Source: Escherichia phage vB_EcoM-Ro111lw. Taken from it: a DNA stretch of 64,000 nucleotides. The notes under the pieces were generated by a model. The model made no database searches and was not told the origin of the DNA. It saw only the letters and a list, made by a program, of their open reading frames with translations. This document shows, one piece after another, positions 24,399 through 64,000 of this stretch. Positions within the stretch are counted from its first letter, which is position 1. Every line of letters begins with the position of its first letter. The position numbers and the translations under genes are program-made. The stretch lies in sequence record MH571750.1. One strand, 5' to 3'.

Positions 24399-27098
24399 TT
24401 AGTGTACTTCAAGCCAGCTTTTACCAACCTTACCAGTACCTGTTACAAGTGTTTCTTTCTTAAGACCTAAGTTCTTAGAAGCTTGTCCATAATACCAGTC
24501 AGTAACTGCTTTCACTTCTGCCGTCATACTTTCTGGACATTCCCAGCTTGTTTCATCGTGATATGCGCAGAGCAAACGAGCACCAATAGCTGGTTTACGA
24601 CCATTTAACTTCATCAAACCTTCGTCAATCATACGACGACAAGCAAGGTTAATTGCCTCATTTTGAATCTGACTTTCCGAACCCATAAGCAAATAATTCA
24701 ATAACTTATGTGGAGATTTACACCACAACCAAGCTCCAGCAACCTTTACGAAGCCCCCTTTAGAGATTGCAGCAGTCTTACCAAACACCTCTTCAAGTGC
24801 CTTTTTAGTCGCTTTGTAGTCAGCTTCCAAGTCATCCAGCAGCTTCTTAATTTTAGGCAAACGAATAAAGTAAGTCTGTTTGGTCAGTGCACCTTCCTGA
24901 GTAGTTGCAGCTTTAATCGTCTTAGCAAACTTCTCATCACCTGCACCGAACAGCAGTGCATAGATACCATTCTTAGCTTTCTTACGACCCTTGCTAATCT
25001 CATGGAGAAGGTTCTCATCCTGAGTAGCTCGACAAGTCAAGATATCCTGCTCATCATTCAAGCTAAAGTAAATACTGTTCAGTGTGTGTGCATCAGTCCC
25101 TGAATAGACAACGTACAGGTCATTCTCAGAGTCATAGCGAAGGTACTTATCAATCTCTGGGTTGAGGTACTCATCAAAGTGTTTGCAGTAATAGCGTCCA
25201 TCCTCTTGACGAATAAACTCAATCTCTTCTTTACCTTGCGTTACCGCTTTGGTGAAGTCTTTGTCACCCATAAAGTTACAAAGGAGAACTAGCTGGGCTG
25301 AGTTCATGTCTACAGAGACAACGTTAGTACCTTCCTCACAAATCCACACTGCCCTCATTGGTTCCCCATAGACAGCAGCACCAGACGGTACGTTTACAAT
25401 ACCATATTGTGTCATACGTCCAGTTGAAGTACCAAATACCATTGCACCAGCACTAAGGCGACCATCAGGACGAATCTGGTTTAGCCAACCTTTTTCATCA
25501 TCCTTTGAGTTCTCAATGGTTCTGCGTCGGTGCATCAAAGTATAGTACTTAGCAATCTTCTGTCCAAGCTCACCTTCAATCGTATCATAAGAAGATTCAG
25601 TAAGTTTTGGTGAAGTACGGATTAAACAAGGCTCAAGCAAATCTGTGTACTTCTTAACAGACCAGTTATGCTCAATGTACTGGACACCTTCATGTTCAAC
25701 ATAACTCAAGCCACACCGTTCAACCATCTCCTGCCACTTAGGATGCTTGGTAATCATCTTTTTGTTGTCTTTGAAACGACAAACCTTAACAGGACGACCA
25801 TCTGAGTCTTTCTTGTAGTTCCAGTCATCTGGAATCCAACCAACTGATTTCAAGTAATCTTTAACAACTGCTACCTGAGTCATACGAGAAACTTCGAACT
25901 CAATTGGTGTATATGGTGCATCAATCAAACCTGTGTAGCGACTTGACTCAAGTCCAAAGTGGTTAACAACATGGCTGTTATAGTACTTCACAGTCTTAAC
26001 TGTTTTTACTGGCTTCCAGTCTTTGCATTTCTTACCAATCTTTGCATTCAACTCATTGCAAATTGCACGAGCATCCTTCATTGCTACAAAACCTTCCTTG
26101 TACTCTTCACCAGTTACAGAGTTGGTTGGCGTATAGCAATTTCTCTTTTCAATGTTAAAAATCTTTGTAGTTGGCTTACCAAATGGTTTGATTTCATAAG
26201 TCTGCATCTCACCATTACGTACCTGCTGACGATACTTTGTCTTAGGGTACTTGGTAATCCTCTTCAGTCCATCTGCATGACCAAATGTTTCAACATACTC
26301 ATTCCAAGCCTTTGCAAACTCTTCACCAGTTACTTTACCTTTGGTCTTAATAGTTGGTGGTAGATGTGGTTCAACCTCTGAAGCAAGCTCATTAGTCAAC
26401 TTGTCAAGTTCCTTTACATGGAACTCCATAAGTTCTTTATCAGCTTTCCAACCATTGATAGCTTGCTGGCTCATCCAGAAAGATGTCTCTTTAGCTCGCA
26501 TGTAGGTTTCATAAGTGTCTATGCCACACTTCTTAAGCTTGAGATACTCGTTATCAAGTGCCCGTTTAGTTTTGGCGTTAATACGGATATCTTCTACAAC
26601 ACGAGTGAAGATTTCTGCATTCCACACACCCCAATGTTCAATCTCTGGCTTACGAACACCAACACGAGCACCCCATGCAGCCAAACCATGAGCACCTTTA
26701 TAACCCTTTGGAGTTGGTCTATCCATCCACTGAACACGAGACTGGATAAGAGAATCCTGAAAGAAATTACTCCACGGCTTACATTTTGGATTATCAAAGT
26801 TCCATAAATCCGGTGCAATGTGATTGAAGACCCACCAGTCATAACCGAGGCCGTTATGGATACAAAGTCGTTTTGCCTTTAACGCAAACTCAACACCTTC
26901 ACGTAAACCACCCTTAATGTACTTAGTGTACTTGTGACCGAGGATAGGCTCATCTGTAAAGACCCATACAGGTGGCTCTTCATCGTCAGATTTATAGTCT
27001 GCAAAGGCCATTACGTGAACTTTAGTGAACTCAAGGAGTAAACCATCAGTTTCTGTATCACCAACCAAATGTAAGTTTTTAAAATCTACGTTTTCCAT
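24399..27098 (-). CDS. DNA polymerase, family A with 3'-5' exonuclease domain (T7 gp5-like); start set to MENVDF ATG
   Basis: Exo I motif DTETDGL near N-terminus; YHDE motif near C-terminus; about 900 aa; AGAGGGAG RBS before the ATG at 27098. Confidence 0.85.
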   Translation of the reverse strand: MENVDFKNLHLVGDTETDGLLLEFTKVHVMAFADYKSDDEEPPVWVFTDEPILGHKYTKYIKGGLREGVEFALKAKRLCIHNGLGYDWWVFNHIAPDLWNFDNPKCKPWSNFFQDSLIQSRVQWMDRPTPKGYKGAHGLAAWGARVGVRKPEIEHWGVWNAEIFTRVVEDIRINAKTKRALDNEYLKLKKCGIDTYETYMRAKETSFWMSQQAINGWKADKELMEFHVKELDKLTNELASEVEPHLPPTIKTKGKVTGEEFAKAWNEYVETFGHADGLKRITKYPKTKYRQQVRNGEMQTYEIKPFGKPTTKIFNIEKRNCYTPTNSVTGEEYKEGFVAMKDARAICNELNAKIGKKCKDWKPVKTVKTVKYYNSHVVNHFGLESSRYTGLIDAPYTPIEFEVSRMTQVAVVKDYLKSVGWIPDDWNYKKDSDGRPVKVCRFKDNKKMITKHPKWQEMVERCGLSYVEHEGVQYIEHNWSVKKYTDLLEPCLIRTSPKLTESSYDTIEGELGQKIAKYYTLMHRRRTIENSKDDEKGWLNQIRPDGRLSAGAMVFGTSTGRMTQYGIVNVPSGAAVYGEPMRAVWICEEGTNVVSVDMNSAQLVLLCNFMGDKDFTKAVTQGKEEIEFIRQEDGRYYCKHFDEYLNPEIDKYLRYDSENDLYVVYSGTDAHTLNSIYFSLNDEQDILTCRATQDENLLHEISKGRKKAKNGIYALLFGAGDEKFAKTIKAATTQEGALTKQTYFIRLPKIKKLLDDLEADYKATKKALEEVFGKTAAISKGGFVKVAGAWLWCKSPHKLLNYLLMGSESQIQNEAINLACRRMIDEGLMKLNGRKPAIGARLLCAYHDETSWECPESMTAEVKAVTDWYYGQASKNLGLKKETLVTGTGKVGKSWLEVH

Positions 27099-27270
27099 TT
27101 TTACTCCCTCTAAAATCATTAACCTCATACATTACTGCAAAAAATTATAAAAAGCAAGTTGACAATGTACTTGACAAGGTGTTAATCTTTGCGAAGTGGG
27201 TTTTTACTTAAAAGGTTACTTAACAGTTTAACTATACAGATACTTTAAAACTCTTAAAAGATTATTTAAT

Positions 27271-29405: not shown

Positions 29406-29606
29406 ATGAAGATGAGAGTAAAAGATAATTTTAAAGTTATTGACCATCGTTTAGTGGAACTCTCATCTCTTTCCAATGAGGTAATGATTGAACGTCTTAA
29501 GAGAGTTGAATCACGAAGGAAAGAGATTGCAGATGAAATTCATGAACTGGACAAGATTGAAAACGGATTGAAGGCAGAACTACAACGAAGAGGTGCTAAT
29601 GTCTAA
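29406..29606 (+). CDS. Small coiled-coil protein
   Basis: 66 aa, ATG start. Confidence 0.4.
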   Translation: MKMRVKDNFKVIDHRLVELSSLSNEVMIERLKRVESRRKEIADEIHELDKIENGLKAELQRRGANV

Positions 29607-31584
29607 AGGTCGTAAATTGAAAGAGGCTGGTCAGTTTATTGGTCATTGTGCATGTCCACGTTGTGGCTCATCAGATGCTGGTTCAATCTACCATCATGAC
29701 GATGATTCTTATTCGATGACTTGCTTTAGCTGTAACAAAGGTTTCCCAGAGTGGGATTTTGATAAAGGACAAATCGTGAGCACTTATTCTACTGGTTCAG
29801 ATAATAAAAACCGTACTTTCCGTGGAATGGATTTAGACGATGTAAAAGAAAACCTAGAAGCAATGGACTTGAAAGACAGGAAGATTCCTGCAAAAGTCCT
29901 CGAACGCTTAGGTATCAAGGTTGACATTGATAGTGACGGTGAAATTGATGCACATTTCTATCCAACTTACAAACGTAATGAAGATGGCAAGCTAGAACAT
30001 GTTGGTTATCGTGTTCGTCACCGTTACCCAGAAGACCATCCAAAAGAACACCTACGTGGCAAGCTAAAAGACTTCTCAGGTGGTGTTGGAGACATTAAAG
30101 GTGAACTGGCAATGTTCGGTTCATGGATTGCTCCAGAAGGTGGTAACCGTCTATTCATCTGGGAAGGTGAGATGGAATGTGCGACAGCTATCTACATGAC
30201 TTCTCTGGCAATTAAAGATAAGTCTCGTCGTAAGAATTACTGTCACGTATCTGTTCCATCAGGTGCAAACATTAAGTCTATCAAAGACAACTATCAGTAC
30301 ATCACATCATTTGATGAGATTTACTTGTGCTTTGATAACGATGAAGCAGGTGCTAAAGCTACCAAAGAGGCTGCTGGTATCCTACCTATTGAGAAGGTTC
30401 GTTTATTCCAGTACCCAGAAGGCGTAAAAGACCTTAACGAATGGTGGACAAAGTTCTATAAAGAGAAAGACACAGTTCTGGAAGGATTTAAACAGCGTAT
30501 CTACAATGCACCTCGTTACTGCCCTGCTGGTATCAAGAACTTTGCAGATGGTTTTGAGGCAATGAAGAATCGTGGTCAGATTCCATTGATTCCTTTCCCA
30601 GAATCTTTCGGGGATTTGAACAGACTGACTTACGGTGGTTATGGTTTGGGTGAGATTACGACTATTGCAGCACCATCTTCAGTAGGTAAGTCAGCTTACA
30701 CTCGTGAGATGATTTACACTGCTTGGAAGGAAACTGATTATAATATCGGTGTAATTCCTGTAGAAGATACCTATGAAGAGTTGATGGAAATGCTCTGTGC
30801 AATCCACCTGAGCAAGCAGATTTCTGAGATTCCTTATGACGAACGTGATTGGGATGAATTAAAGGAAGCACACGCAGAACTATCTAAAGGTCGTCGTATC
30901 CACATCGTAGACCATCAAGGGGCGATTGACCAAGACAACCTGCTGGAATTTGTTGACTATCTTGTTAACAGTTTAGACTGTAAGATTATTATTCTTGACC
31001 CTATTACGTTGGCTCTGTCACGTTCAGATACGGATGAAGAGGAAGTTTTGTCTGAGCTATTGCGTCGTTGCAAACGCTACCAGTATGCGCAGGTAAACGT
31101 ATGTCACGTTCGTAAGAGTGCAGGTGGTCAGAAAGCTAACTCTGAAGGTGGGGATATCTCTGAAGAGGATATCAAGGGTTCTGGTGCGTATTTCCAGATT
31201 TCCATGAATAATATTTTGTTAATGCGTAACAAGGTTGACCCAGACCCTGTTAAGAAAAACTTAACAAAAATCAAGTTAACTAAGTGTCGTCGTCACGGTA
31301 AGTCAACAGGTATTGCTGGTCATACTTGGTACAATCCAGATACAGGACGCCTCATCAAAGCATCTGGTTGTGGGGTTGACATTGATGGTGCAGCAGAAAA
31401 TATTCGCCAACAGTTTGGTATTGGTGAAGCTGAAGACCATTACGATGACTCTTTACCGCATTATGAGGATGAAGTGTTTGACCGTGAGACTGGTGAAGTC
31501 TATACTGAAGAACAGCGTCAAAGCTCAACGATTCCACCTGTATTAAGTGAGGATGCAGATGACTGCCCGTTTGAAACTGAGTGA
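29599..31584 (+). CDS. Bifunctional DNA primase/helicase (T7 gp4-like); start set to ATG (MSKGRK)
   Basis: N-terminal zinc ribbon CPRCGS...CFSCNKGF; TOPRIM-like LCFDNDEAG; Walker A APSSVGKS; track start is GTG. Confidence 0.85.
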   Translation: MSKGRKLKEAGQFIGHCACPRCGSSDAGSIYHHDDDSYSMTCFSCNKGFPEWDFDKGQIVSTYSTGSDNKNRTFRGMDLDDVKENLEAMDLKDRKIPAKVLERLGIKVDIDSDGEIDAHFYPTYKRNEDGKLEHVGYRVRHRYPEDHPKEHLRGKLKDFSGGVGDIKGELAMFGSWIAPEGGNRLFIWEGEMECATAIYMTSLAIKDKSRRKNYCHVSVPSGANIKSIKDNYQYITSFDEIYLCFDNDEAGAKATKEAAGILPIEKVRLFQYPEGVKDLNEWWTKFYKEKDTVLEGFKQRIYNAPRYCPAGIKNFADGFEAMKNRGQIPLIPFPESFGDLNRLTYGGYGLGEITTIAAPSSVGKSAYTREMIYTAWKETDYNIGVIPVEDTYEELMEMLCAIHLSKQISEIPYDERDWDELKEAHAELSKGRRIHIVDHQGAIDQDNLLEFVDYLVNSLDCKIIILDPITLALSRSDTDEEEVLSELLRRCKRYQYAQVNVCHVRKSAGGQKANSEGGDISEEDIKGSGAYFQISMNNILLMRNKVDPDPVKKNLTKIKLTKCRRHGKSTGIAGHTWYNPDTGRLIKASGCGVDIDGAAENIRQQFGIGEAEDHYDDSLPHYEDEVFDRETGEVYTEEQRQSSTIPPVLSEDADDCPFETE

Positions 31585-62674: not shown

Positions 62675-62923
62675 ATGTCAACTATCCGCGTAACTGTTAA
62701 TGCTTATGGCTGCCACAAACTTGATGCAAAATTCGATATCGGTGGAACAGATAACACCTTTGACCTTATCAAAATGCTGATTCAGCAGGTGATACCAGAT
62801 TATAACCCTACTGATGACTTCTGGAAAGATGCCGTAAAAGAAGCCATAAACGAGGAATCTCACTACCATTATTGGGGTGACTTGATTGTCTCTCTATACT
62901 ACAGCAAACAAGGCTACAACTAA
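62675..62923 (+). CDS. Hypothetical small protein (last ORF before the repeat region)
   Basis: 82 aa. Confidence 0.5.
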   Translation: MSTIRVTVNAYGCHKLDAKFDIGGTDNTFDLIKMLIQQVIPDYNPTDDFWKDAVKEAINEESHYHYWGDLIVSLYYSKQGYN

Positions 62924-62933
62924 TCGACGCAAC

Positions 62934-62985
62934 GGGGCTAAATAGCCCCAGATACCTTTACAGCCCCTTAAATGGGGCTTTTTTA
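62934..62985 (+). terminator. Tandem hairpins ending in a rho-independent terminator
   Basis: GGGGCT-aaat-AGCCCC then AGCCCC-ttaaat-GGGGCT followed by TTTTTT. Confidence 0.6.
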
Positions 62986-63129
62986 CGTCTATCGAATCCT
63001 TATACAATCCCTTTCCCTTTCCTTTCTAGAATCTTATCAGACCTTAAAAAGCAATAACTCTATAGTCTACTCTATAACCTCTTATCAAATCAACTTAAAT
63101 ATAAGCCAATAACCCCAGAAAGGGGATGG

Positions 63130-63560
63130 CCCATTAAAACGCTCTATAAAGCTCTATAACAGCCTTATCAACCTAACTTAAGCAATCATATTAACCCACT
63201 CTAAAAAGCCCTTTATAGAGCTTCCCAGAGCCTTAAAAGAATCTTATAAGGGTGAAAGCTTATAGGCTGGCTAGTATCTTGTGAATAACTAAACAATCCC
63301 CTTGATAGTCACTAAAAAGCATGTTATAGGGGCTATAAAGTTACTTCAAAGTAACGTAAAAAAGGCTATAAAGTTACGTAAATGCTAGCCCCCTTAACAT
63401 TTTCTTAACAATTTCTTAACAAACCCTACATAGTTATGCTTTTAAGGCACTTGTTAGAGACTTGTTAGCCCCTTGTTAAATCTCTGTTAAGACCACGTAA
63501 AAGCCTTGTAAGAGTCTTTGGCATAGCCTTTAAAGCTCCTATAAAGCCCTATAAAGAGGT
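63130..63560. repeat. (G)CTATAAAG repeat family and palindromes in ORF-free region
   Basis: GCTCTATAAAGCTCTATAAC, inverted CTTTATAGAGC, GGCTATAAAGTTAC twice, CCTATAAAG twice; palindrome GTTACTTCAAAGTAAC and TTACGTAA. Confidence 0.6.
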
Positions 63561-64000
63561 GTCTGTATAGTTGGGGTGTAGATACTAGGAAGAGGTTTAA
63601 AAGAGCTTACAAGGAGCTATAGAGAGCTTTTAAGAGGTATGTTTAAGAGTTCACTAAGAAAGGAAAGGGAACGATAAGGAAGAGATAGTGACCATGTTAA
63701 TAGCTTGTTAAAAAGATTAAACACTTGTTAGAAACTTGTTAATTATCTAATTGGTATTGTTACCAATCCCTAACAAAATAACTCTTTAAAATTAACTTGT
63801 TAGCTCTTGTTAGTCATCTGTTAAGCCTCTGTAAAGACTATTCAGCACTTGTTAGAAAACTGTTAAGCCCTTGTTAGTTCTGTTAAGAAACTGTTAAGAC
63901 CTTTGAAGAGTTGTTAAGAAGATGTGAGAACTGTTAAGAGATTGTTAAGGATATTTTAAAATTTTGCAAAGTACTTGTAAGGGAGCTGTTAAGGGCTACC
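63404..64000. repeat. Array of about 20-25 CTTGTTAG / CTGTTAAG octamer repeats, many phased at 10-12 bp; continues to window end
   Basis: Direct copies at about 63450, 63461, 63472, 63484, 63705, 63724, 63735, 63796, 63806, 63818, 63848, 63860, 63870, 63880, 63891, 63910, 63931, 63942, 63986, plus inverted TTAACAA copies at 63404-63423; no ORF of 60 aa or more on either strand. Confidence 0.7.

What the first reader, a model, noticed from the sequence alone, without database searches (positions are those of the whole stretch)
63130..63560. Second repeat family (G)CTATAAAG plus palindromes in the same non-coding region
Between the terminator and the octamer array there are at least seven direct or inverted copies of CTATAAAG-like words (for example GCTCTATAAAGCTCTATAAC, and GGCTATAAAGTTAC twice 33 bp apart) and perfect palindromes (GTTACTTCAAAGTAAC, TTACGTAA). 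TATAAA-type words resemble T4-type late-promoter -10 elements, yet there are no genes to drive. Candidate roles are a binding platform, clustered promoters for non-coding RNAs, or an origin component.
Basis: seen in the sequence. Interest (0 to 1): 0.5.

Follow-up and report, generated by a model that had tools for sequence, protein, structure and literature searches.

The report
Phased repeats flanking phage terminal repeat
The CTATAAAG-type words are real and conserved. They are one flavour of an ~11-bp-spaced array of 8-bp words that surrounds and fills the direct terminal repeat of a Felix O1-like phage, and this array is most likely a protein-binding platform for cutting and packaging the genome, not a set of promoters.

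Summary
CTATAAAG occurs 14 times in 64 kb (3.1 expected), six of them within 63144-63556. The window is a Felix O1-like phage (Felixounavirus), and base 64000 is the right physical end of the genome. By homology to phages with mapped termini, the direct terminal repeat (DTR) is 63388-64000, so the finding straddles its left boundary.

The CTATAAAG words and the neighbouring CTTGTTAG/CTGTTAAG octamers share one frame, CT-N2-W2-AG. It occurs at 34 per kb here against 3-4 per kb elsewhere, with ~11-bp spacing (lag-11 z = 10.4), unique within the 64 kb.

- Words are better conserved than spacers (p = 0.003).
- Most indels of 5 nt or more (61 of 79) are multiples of 11 bp.
- The boundary sequences are invariant across three genera.
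- Erwinia phages (Kolesnikvirus) keep the architecture but use CTTCTAAG in the left flank.

No promoter, T4-type late motif, Rfam family or covarying RNA structure was found, and the region lies between convergent terminators.

Best reading (inferred, not shown): a cis-acting platform for terminus formation and packaging, analogous but not homologous to the CCTAAAG arrays at the T7 concatemer junction. A replication origin is not excluded. I class it as a new member of a known kind, of moderate interest.

The parts
62962..62985 (+). Rho-independent terminator (AGCCCC-TTAAAT-GGGGCT plus T-run) that closes the last + strand transcription unit and forms the left limit of the gene-free region.
   Evidence: The last ORF ends at 62923.
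63031..63387 (+). Left (unique) flank of the DTR. It is an array of CT-N2-W2-AG words in + orientation at spacings of about 10-11 bp or multiples. Members include CTCTATA x4 (63058, 63070, 63142, 63152), CTATAAAG, CTAAAAAG, CTTAAAAG and CTTATAAG. The + strand is C-rich.
   Evidence: Conservation.
63141..63160 (+). Doublet GCTCTATAAAG-CTCTATAAC, two units 10 bp apart. It is highly conserved in Felixounavirus, Suspvirus and Mooglevirus (CTCTATAACG-CTCTAT in Mooglevirus).
63201..63250 (+). Block CTAAAAAG-CC-CTTTATAG (an inverted CTATAAAG at 63211-63218) ... CTTAAAAG-AAT-CTTATAAG. The stretch 63231-63252 is invariant in 25 relatives.
63331..63363 (+). One full 33-bp unit made of three 11-bp sub-units (GGCTATAAAGT / TACTTCAAAGT / AACGTAAAAAA). 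Copy number varies among relatives from about 1 to 4. It contains the interrupted palindrome GTTACTT-CA-AAGTAAC (63340-63355), which is not conserved.
   Evidence: D11; alignment: L007 about 4 copies, L025 about 2.5, L003/L014 fewer, L012/L019/L021 one; 50-80% column conservation.
63364..63387 (+). Last unit before the boundary: GGCTATAAAGTTACGTAAATGCTA. The context ACGTAAAWRYTA immediately left of the DTR is invariant in 25 loci of three genera. CTATAAAG is replaced by CTTAAAAG in many relatives. TTACGTAA (63374-63381) reads TAACGTAA in Mooglevirus. TTACG-N6-GYTAG is kept in Kolesnikvirus.
63388..64000 (.). Direct terminal repeat, right-end copy (613 bp), inferred by homology. It starts GCCCCCTTAACA and ends GTTAAGGGCTACC, which is the last base of the window.
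   Evidence: PhageTerm DTRs for Pr103Blw (PMC8303462) and I14.1 (PMC11737134). Bal31 plus run-off sequencing for UAB_Phi87 (PMC4837284).
63394..63421 (-). Three inverted copies of the TGTTAA word (TTAACA at 63394, 63405, 63416; 11-bp spacing) at the very left end of the DTR. Nearly invariant. Relative L007 has 22 bp (two units) more.
63450..63512 (+).
   Evidence: (D1).
63528..63556 (+). CTTTAAAG-CTC-CTATAAAG-CC-CTATAAAG: three CTWWAAAG words inside the DTR. The middle one reads CTGTAAAG in most relatives.
63597..63640 (-). The same word class in inverted orientation (TTAAAAGAG-CTTACAAGGAG-CTATAGAGAG-CTTTTAAGAGG). GC skew flips from C-rich to G-rich at about 63555.
   Evidence: (I10).
63695..63995 (+). 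Main TGTTAR array inside the DTR: 16 TGTTAA/TGTTAG words, all in + orientation.
63986..64000 (+). Right-boundary box CTGTTAAGGGCTACC, invariant in 25 loci. In relatives the next bases are AAGCAGATATACA, a box also conserved in Kolesnikvirus.

Best explanation
The finding is the left-hand part of the concatemer-junction region of a Felix O1-like phage with short, exact direct terminal repeats. About 1.7 kb of gene-free DNA makes up this region: roughly 400 bp left of the DTR, the 613-bp DTR, and roughly 630 bp to its right (the last part seen only in relatives). The whole region is a degenerate tandem array of ~11-bp units, each carrying an 8-bp word of frame CT-N2-W2-AG. The CTATAAAG/CTTAAAAG/CTCTATA flavour dominates the unique left flank and recurs inside the DTR. 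The TGTTAAG/TGTTAG flavour dominates the DTR.

**Proposed mechanism (inferred).** The phased words are contact points for a multimeric DNA-binding and DNA-bending protein. The terminase small subunit is the most likely candidate, alone or with an accessory factor. This protein would coat or wrap the junction and position the cuts at the two invariant boundary sequences, ...ACGTAAATGCTA|GCCCCCTTAACA... and ...GTTAAGGGCTACC|AAGCAGATAT.... The DTR would then be duplicated as in T7-type packaging.

**Shown here:** the position relative to the termini, the phasing, word-level purifying selection, unit-wise gain and loss, invariant boundaries, and the lack of signs of transcription.

**Inferred:** that a protein binds, which protein it is, and that the purpose is terminus formation and packaging.
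For: **1. The region is the genome end.**
- The window matches 255 Felix O1-like phage records.
- The window ends on the same base as the Pr103Blw, ZX4221 and SLAM_phiST56 records.
- Four records start exactly at GCCCCCTTAACA, which is window 63388.
- DTRs were called independently by PhageTerm for Pr103Blw and I14.1. For UAB_Phi87 a 608-bp DTR was found by Bal31 digestion and run-off sequencing; the boundary rule used here gives 614 bp for that phage.
- The Erwinia phage Roscha1 record, from another genus, is opened at the homologous site.

**2. Both boundary contexts are invariant** in 25 loci of three genera. Boundary boxes persist in Kolesnikvirus although the rest is barely alignable.

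**3. The phasing is strong and local.**
- Lag-11 autocorrelation z is 10.4 with harmonics, against a maximum of 2.5 in 60 controls.
- The A/T-versus-G/C content alternates with a period of 11.1-11.35 bp.
- This is the only such array in the 64 kb.

**4. One word frame covers both 'families'.** CT-N2-W2-AG occurs at 34 per kb against 2.9-4.0 per kb elsewhere.

**5. The words are under selection.**
- Words are 0.907 conserved against 0.836 for spacers, circular-shift p = 0.003.
- The region keeps about 74-83% nucleotide identity in Mooglevirus, where the neighbouring 176-aa protein is only about 40% identical.

**6. The array evolves by whole units.**
- 61 of 79 gap runs of 5 nt or more are exact multiples of 11.
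- DTR-equivalent lengths of 570-658 bp differ mostly in steps of about 10-11 bp.

**7. The architecture outlives the word.** Kolesnikvirus keeps the 11-bp array (z = 8.0) and the TGTTAAG words, but uses CTTCTAAG in the left flank.

**8. A direct analogue exists.** The T7 junction carries CCTAAAG 13 times in 640 bp with a 12-13-bp period.

**9. The region is insulated and shows no transcription signals.** It lies between convergent terminators (the Michonne annotation), with no convincing promoters.
Against: - No protein-DNA binding, cleavage or packaging data exist for this region in any Felix O1-like phage that I could find.
- The terminase genes are not in the window, so nothing links a specific protein to the words.
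- In T7, which is the analogy, the function of the junction arrays is itself unsettled. [quoted passage not shown]
- The array extends hundreds of bp beyond what a cleavage site should need.
- Phased short repeats next to an A/T-rich stretch (14% GC, about 70-120 bp right of the DTR in relatives) fit an origin equally well.
- The DTR boundaries in this particular phage are inferred by homology and from where the window ends. They were not measured.
- The region is less conserved than the core DNA polymerase gene (85-86% in Mooglevirus).
Confidence: 0.5

Rival explanations
1. Replication origin. The phased words would be iteron-like binding sites for a phage or host initiator, with the A/T-rich stretch just right of the DTR acting as the unwinding element.
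For: - Dense direct repeats at near-helical spacing are typical of iteron origins (established knowledge).
- A 50-nt stretch of 14% GC lies about 70-120 bp right of the DTR in relatives.
- One perfect DnaA box, TTATTCACA, lies at 63280-63288 on the minus strand, and another lies in the right flank of a relative.
- The phage has a T7-like replisome: family A DNA polymerase and a Toprim-DnaB primase-helicase.
Against: - The units are 8-bp words every 11 bp and number in the dozens. Classical origins have 3-7 iterons of 17-22 bp.
- No initiator-like gene is adjacent. The neighbours are small hypothetical proteins.
- Half of the DnaA box is not conserved (TGTGAA is invariant; TAA is variable).
- DnaA-box density is only about 1.8 times background.
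- The array is centred on the DTR, and its most conserved parts are the two cut sites.
- The cumulative GC-skew minimum lies at about 27-28 kb, at a divergent promoter region, not here. Skew follows transcription direction, so this is a weak argument.
Confidence: 0.15
2. Another kind of nucleoprotein platform at the genome ends that does not specify the cut. Examples are control of DNA ejection or entry (like the injection-stop region of T5), protection or pairing of ends for concatemer formation, or binding of a host nucleoid protein.
For: - The array occupies both virion ends and extends far beyond the cut sites.
- An approximate wedge model predicts curvature peaks at the CTATAAAG doublets. 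The one at 63360-63380, just left of the boundary, is near the 99th percentile of the window.
- The T7 junction has a comparable array in a phage of the same hosts.
Against: - No match to IHF or Fis consensus sites above background.
- The curvature model uses parameters recalled from memory, and the region is not a global outlier.
- Nothing ties the words to ejection or end protection.
Confidence: 0.17
3. Clustered promoters or a non-coding RNA locus.
For: - The words contain TATAAA.
- The minus-strand RNA of 63130-63560 folds better than shuffles (z = -4.1).
Against: - TATAAATA occurs once in 64 kb (3.6 expected), not in this region.
- Per the genome paper, Felix O1 encodes no RNA polymerase and no T4-like specificity factors.
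- There are no sigma-70-like sites in 63130-63400 and only 9-of-12 matches elsewhere.
- No Rfam hit at E up to 1.
- Alignment folding gives only 0-2 compensatory pairs out of 21-67, and a structure different from the single-sequence fold.
- The fold score is explained by inverted copies of near-palindromic words.
- Many words are replaced by family variants that break TATAAA, such as CTTAAAAG and CTGTAAAG.
Confidence: 0.04
4. Functionless satellite. The array would be a slippage- and recombination-prone tandem repeat that persists next to the only functional elements, the two cut sites.
For: - Unit-wise indels and copy-number variation.
- The first GGCTATAAAGTTAC copy and its palindrome are poorly conserved.
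Against: - Words are significantly better conserved than spacers.
- Long invariant blocks lie far from the cut sites, for example 63231-63252.
- The architecture is kept in four genera with a different left-flank word in Kolesnikvirus.
- The region is more conserved than the adjacent genes.
Confidence: 0.08

Closest known systems
Short-repeat arrays at the phage T7 concatemer junction (the SRL and SRR regions next to the 160-bp terminal repeat; Dunn & Studier 1983, cited from my own knowledge)
   Same: Both phages have short exact DTRs. Both have non-coding DNA around and inside the repeat that is packed with a 7-8-bp word sharing a YTAAAG-like core, repeated at near-helical spacing. In the T7 record analysed here, CCTAAAG occurs 13 times in 640 bp, with autocorrelation peaks at lags 12-13. 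Both phages infect enterobacteria. In both, the function of the array is not established.
   Different: There is no sequence homology (blastn-short E of 1.1 or higher). The period is about 11.2 bp here against about 13 bp in T7. Here there are two word flavours, orientation switches, and inverted symmetry between the two flanks, whereas the T7 words are all direct. The DTR is about four times longer here. No phage RNA-polymerase promoters (phiOL, phiOR) are interleaved.
Terminase recognition sites built from repeated boxes flanking the cut: P1 pac (seven TGATCA/G hexamers), SPP1 pacL/pacR (phased boxes on bent DNA bound by the small terminase), lambda cosB (cited from my own knowledge)
   Same: Short words are repeated on both sides of a specific cleavage position. 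The left boundary is flanked by phased CTWWAAAG-type units on one side and three TTAACA words at 11-bp spacing on the other.
   Different: Those sites span about 100-250 bp with 3-7 boxes and serve headful or cos packaging. Here there are dozens of words over about 1.7 kb and two cut sites that define an exact DTR. Binding by terminase is untested here.
Iteron-type replication origins (lambda ori, plasmid and P1 iterons)
   Same: Direct repeats in helical phase in a gene-free, partly A/T-rich region.
   Different: The words are 8 bp every 11 bp rather than 17-22-bp iterons. There are many more copies, in mixed orientation. No adjacent initiator gene is present, and the array is centred on the genome termini.
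T4-type late promoters (TATAAATA, read by gp55)
   Same: Only the shared TATAAA letters.
   Different: The consensus is absent from the region and depleted in the window. No gp55-type factor is reported for Felix O1. No genes lie downstream.

Membership tests
Repeat array associated with a DTR concatemer junction (T7 SRL/SRR kind) | The genome has short, exact, non-permuted direct terminal repeats. | tested here: met
   By homology. The window ends at the same base as three DTR-bearing records. Four records start at the base homologous to 63388. DTRs were determined by PhageTerm and by Bal31 plus run-off sequencing in relatives. Termini were not measured for this phage itself.
Repeat array associated with a DTR concatemer junction (T7 SRL/SRR kind) | There are many copies of a 7-8-bp word in non-coding DNA abutting and inside the DTR, far above chance. 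| tested here: met
   (34 per kb against 3-4 per kb). The T7 comparison was computed.
Repeat array associated with a DTR concatemer junction (T7 SRL/SRR kind) | Sequence homology to the T7 arrays. | tested here: not met
   blastn-short of the Felix-type junction against the T7 junction gave only 9-14-nt chance matches, E of 1.1 or higher. The resemblance is analogy only.
Terminase recognition (pac/cos-type) site | Conserved sequence at and around the cleavage positions. | tested here: met
   Both boundary contexts are invariant in 25 loci of three genera. Boxes are kept in Kolesnikvirus.
Terminase recognition (pac/cos-type) site | Specific binding by the terminase small subunit, and requirement of the site for packaging. 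| not testable with these tools
   Needs EMSA or footprinting and a plasmid-packaging or mutant assay. The terminase genes lie outside the window.
Iteron replication origin | 3-7 direct iterons of about 17-22 bp, an adjacent A/T-rich unwinding element, DnaA boxes, and often an adjacent initiator gene. | tested here: inconclusive
   The unit size and number are atypical. An A/T-rich stretch is present in relatives. One perfect but only half-conserved DnaA box is present. No initiator gene is adjacent.
T4-type late promoter | A TATAAATA element upstream of late genes, plus a gp55-type factor. | tested here: not met
   TATAAATA occurs once in 64 kb, inside an ORF. There are no downstream genes. 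No such factor is reported for Felix O1.
Sigma-70 promoter cluster | -35 and -10 hexamers with 16-18-nt spacing. | tested here: not met
   None found in 63130-63400. Elsewhere in the region only 9-of-12 matches occur, caused by TTAACA resembling TTGACA.
Structured non-coding RNA | A match to a known family, or a conserved structure with compensatory changes. | tested here: not met
   No Rfam match at E up to 1. Only 0-2 compensatory pairs were found.

The most novel reading that the evidence does not exclude
The whole ~1.7-kb junction would be a telomere-like nucleoprotein organiser. A phage protein would polymerise or wrap along a hundred or more ~11.2-bp-phased CT-N4-AG words. The word flavour (CTWWAAAG versus TGTTAAG) and orientation would encode 'outside' versus 'inside' the repeat. 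The inverted boundary words (TAGCCCCCTTAACA at the left, its near-complement TGTTAAGGGCTA at the right) would direct one nicking activity to opposite strands at the two DTR borders. The number of units would then set the DTR length, which varies in steps of about 10-11 bp among relatives. This would give a general and testable function to the long-unexplained junction arrays of T7-type phages.
Probability: 0.15. Interest if true: 0.65.

Novelty: new member of a known kind. Interest (0 to 1): 0.4.

Why it matters
Felix O1-like phages are widely used for Salmonella and E. coli diagnostics and biocontrol, and are now being engineered. Knowing where the genome ends are, and which flanking DNA is under selection, tells engineers what must not be disturbed and what a minimal packaging cassette must contain.

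More generally, short-word arrays at DTR junctions have been known in T7 for decades without a settled function. The Felix O1 group offers hundreds of sequenced natural variants, with unit gain and loss, interchangeable word variants, and a word swap in Erwinia phages. That variation makes the question experimentally tractable.

Tried and rejected
- **T4-late or sigma-70 promoters:** rejected.
- **Known RNA family:** none found.
- **Conserved RNA structure:** the minus-strand fold z of -4.1 looked promising, but alignment folding showed 0-2 compensatory pairs and an inconsistent structure. A DNA hairpin at the boundary is not significant (z = -0.96), and its GGGGCTA/TAGCCCC arms are not conserved outside Felixounavirus.
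- **Palindromes as the functional elements:**
  - The 16-mer is interrupted, lies in a copy-number-variable unit and is not conserved.
  - TTACGTAA is broken in Mooglevirus and Kolesnikvirus.
- **IHF and Fis sites:** not enriched.
- **DnaA boxes:** weak.
- **Homology to the T7 junction:** none.
- **GC skew as an origin indicator:** it only tracks transcription direction.
- **Coding potential:** rejected, because only tiny ORFs are present and the 11- and 22-bp indels are incompatible with a reading frame.
- **Literature:** I found no description of these words in Felix O1-like phages and no open-access text on T7 SRL/SRR. One search was wasted on loose terms.
- **Bas63 insertion screen (PMC11482910):** the text passages I retrieved give intergenic-insertion fitness results only for T7. 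I did not open the supplements.
- early notes placed the DTR start at 63389. The correct base is 63388.

Full report
**1. The observation**

All the quoted strings are present:
- GCTCTATAAAGCTCTATAAC at 63141-63160.
- GGCTATAAAGTTAC at 63331 and 63364, 33 bp apart (D11).
- TTACGTAA at 63374-63381.
- GTTACTTCAAAGTAAC at 63340-63355.

The last is an interrupted palindrome with 7-bp arms and a CA centre, not a perfect one.

Exact CTATAAAG occurs 14 times in the window against 3.1 +/- 1.75 in dinucleotide-preserving shuffles, and no shuffle out of 100 reached 14. Six copies fall within 63144-63556. The other eight are scattered, mostly inside ORFs, so the word is not a general upstream element. 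The region is gene-free and starts after a good rho-independent terminator at 62962-62985.

**2. Where this is**

The stretch 62900-64000 matches 255 phage records, all from the Felix O1 group, at about 75-92% identity. The window's last base coincides exactly with the last base of the Pr103Blw record, whose 581-bp terminal repeat is annotated and was called with PhageTerm. The ZX4221 and SLAM_phiST56 records end on the same ...GTTAAGGGCTACC.

Four Felixounavirus records (Pr103Blw, ZX4221, I14.1, CRP22) begin exactly at GCCCCCTTAACA. I14.1 was analysed independently with PhageTerm. For UAB_Phi87, Bal31 digestion and run-off sequencing gave a DTR of 608 bp. The boundary rule used here gives 614 bp for that phage.

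By homology, the DTR of this phage is therefore 63388-64000 (613 bp). The finding (63130-63560) straddles its left boundary: 258 bp lie in the unique right-end flank and 173 bp lie inside the repeat.

In relatives the gene-free DNA continues about 630 bp beyond the DTR. It then meets genes on the opposite strand and their terminator. In the replicating concatemer, the junction is thus a region of about 1.7 kb between convergent transcription units.

**3. Anatomy: one array, two flavours**

The whole gene-free stretch has a strong periodicity of about 11 bp:
- Base autocorrelation z is 10.4 at lag 11, with harmonics at 21-22, 31-33 and 42-43.
- The finding region alone gives z = 8.0.
- Sixty control chunks of the window give at most 2.5.
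- The A/T-versus-G/C content alternates with a period of 11.1-11.35 bp.
- The five highest-scoring 400-nt windows in the 64 kb all lie here.

It occurs 35 times on the + strand in 1025 bp. That is 34 per kb, against 2.9-4.0 per kb in the rest of the window. Starts are spaced 10-11 bp apart or multiples of that.

The flavours are distributed in a pattern:
- CTCTATA occurs four times and only in + orientation, in the left flank.
- CTWWAAAG occurs nine times on the + strand between 63144 and 63549.
- The same class appears inverted at 63597-63640.
- TATAGAG, the complement of CTCTATA, appears five times in the right flank of the relative Pr103Blw.
- TGTTAR words fill the DTR in + orientation, except for three inverted copies (TTAACA at 63394, 63405, 63416) at its very left end.
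- GC skew switches from C-rich to G-rich at about 63555.

**4. Conservation**

I aligned 25 sequences (the window and 24 relatives) from Felixounavirus, Suspvirus and Mooglevirus.
- Word positions are more conserved than spacer positions: 0.907 against 0.836, circular-shift p = 0.003. For the finding region alone p is 0.04.
- Blocks such as 63141-63184 and 63231-63252 are almost invariant.
- The segment GCTATAAAGTTACGTAAATGCTA|GCCCCCTTAACATTTTCTTAACAATTTCTTAACAA across the boundary is the most conserved part.
- Both boundary contexts (ACGTAAAWRYTA|GCCCCCTTWACATT and TTAAGGGCTACC|AAGCAGATAT) are identical in every locus examined.

Substitutions within words interconvert family members, for example CTATAAAG to CTTAAAAG, CTGTAAAG or CTTTAAAG.

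By contrast, the first GGCTATAAAGTTAC copy and the 16-bp palindrome lie in a 33-bp unit made of three 11-bp sub-units. Its copy number varies from about 1 to 4 among relatives, and its columns are only 50-80% conserved.

Indels are unit-wise. Of 79 gap runs of 5 nt or more, 61 are exact multiples of 11. These are not independent events, but the pattern is clear. DTR-equivalent lengths of 570-658 bp differ mostly in steps of about 10-11 bp.

As calibration against Mooglevirus:
- The junction is about 74-83% identical.
- The adjacent 176-aa protein is about 40% identical.
- The DNA polymerase gene is 85-86% identical.

The region is therefore more constrained than its accessory neighbours but less than a core gene.

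**5. A fourth genus**

In Erwinia phages (Kolesnikvirus) the syntenic 1.4-kb gene-free region has the same 11-bp periodicity (z = 8.0) and keeps the TGTTAAG(A) words. The left-flank word, however, is CTTCTAAG/CTTCTAAA instead of CTATAAAG. This still fits CT-N2-W2-AG.

The boxes TTACG-N6-GGTTAG|CC and |AAGCAGATATACA are conserved. The Roscha1 record is opened exactly at the homologous left boundary. The architecture and the cut-site boxes are therefore older than the particular CTATAAAG word.

**6. What it is not**

- **T4-type late promoters.** TATAAATA occurs once in 64 kb, and Felix O1 is reported to lack an RNA polymerase and T4-like specificity factors.
- **Sigma-70 promoters.** None lie in 63130-63400, and only weak TTAACA-driven matches occur elsewhere.
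- **Known RNA family.** No match.
- **Conserved RNA structure.** The minus-strand fold z of -4.1 is explained by inverted copies of near-palindromic words. Alignment folding finds only 0-2 compensatory pairs.
- **Coding sequence.** Ruled out by the small ORFs and the indel pattern.

**7. Mechanism**

The best-supported reading is a cis-acting nucleoprotein platform for terminus formation and packaging. A/T-rich word cores alternating with G/C-rich spacers at a near-helical period suit DNA that is bent or wrapped by a multimeric binder. The two invariant boundaries are the natural cleavage targets. Word flavour and orientation distinguish the outside from the inside of the repeat.

An approximate wedge model places curvature peaks on the CTATAAAG doublets. 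One of them, just left of the boundary, is near the 99th percentile of the window. This is weak evidence because the parameters were recalled from memory.

The phage carries a T7-like replisome. T7 itself shows a directly comparable junction array, with CCTAAAG 13 times and a 12-13-bp period, although there is no sequence homology.

Binding, the identity of the protein, and the purpose are all inferred. An origin of replication, or another role at the genome ends, remains possible. An A/T-rich stretch and a DnaA box exist. An insertion screen in T7 found most genome-end loci individually dispensable.

**8. Novelty and score**

DTRs in Felix O1-like phages are known. The phased two-flavour word array, its selection signature, its unit-wise evolution and the invariant boundary boxes were not described in the literature I could search. 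Some GenBank records merely carry unlabelled 'repeat_region' features.

In kind it belongs with the T7 junction repeats and with pac sites built from repeated boxes. I therefore rate it a new member of a known kind, with interest 0.4.

Noticed in passing
window 63386-63399 and 63987-63998: The two DTR boundaries carry the same word in inverted orientation. TAGCCCCCTTAACA lies at the left. TGTTAAGGGCTA at the right has the reverse complement TAGCCCTTAACA. Read inward from either virion end, the 5' strand therefore begins G(GTA)GCCC..TTAACA. This fits one nicking activity acting on opposite strands, but the cut offsets differ by a few nt and the symmetry is not obvious in Kolesnikvirus.
   Followed up: partly
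window 63013-63027 and 63657-63671: A perfect 15-nt inverted repeat, TTCCCTTTCCTTTCT / AGAAAGGAAAGGGAA, with arms 629 nt apart (I14). It brackets the DTR left boundary roughly symmetrically. The right arm is well conserved and the left arm less so.
   Followed up: no
window 63750-63772; L019 (SUSP2), at the position homologous to about 63127: A 22-bp insert, ATTGGTATTGTTACCAATCCCT, with its own inverted repeat (TTGGTA..TACCAA) is present in only about 20% of relatives. A near-identical GGTATTGTTACCAATCCC sits at a different place, in the left flank, in Suspvirus SUSP2. It may be a tiny mobile palindromic element.
   Followed up: no
window 63113-63125: A small hairpin, CCCC-AGAAA-GGGG, in the left flank. 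Most relatives have CCC-GAAA-GGG instead, so the pairing is kept with a different sequence.
   Followed up: no
window 63280-63288 (minus strand): A perfect DnaA box, TTATTCACA. The TGTGAA half is invariant in relatives and the other half is variable. A second perfect box lies in the right flank of Pr103Blw.
   Followed up: partly
L004 (Pr103Blw left end) about 650-700, which is about 70-120 bp right of the DTR and outside the window: A very A/T-rich stretch (14% GC over 50 nt), TTTTATAAAAATTTTAAAATTCTGAATAATTA, next to the conserved box AAGCAGATATACA and a CAGATAT direct repeat. It could be an unwinding element if the junction also serves as an origin.
   Followed up: no
25 loci: DTR-equivalent length varies among relatives (570, 579-582, 591, 601-603, 611-614, 623, 633, 638, 658 bp), mostly in steps of about 10-11 bp. 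Whole array units are evidently gained and lost inside the terminal repeat.
   Followed up: partly
window 24402-27128 (minus strand) and 29593-31581 (+ strand): A T7-like replication module: family A DNA polymerase and a Toprim/DnaB primase-helicase fusion. Several relatives have the polymerase gene split by an inserted endonuclease gene (two-piece matches annotated 'endonuclease VII').
   Followed up: no
public records PP892526.1 and PP948675.1: The I14.1 record carries a Tequintavirus/Demerecviridae taxonomy line although its sequence is a Felixounavirus. The SLAM_phiST56 record is flagged circular and has about 50 nt of unrelated sequence before the GCCCCC terminus.
   Followed up: no
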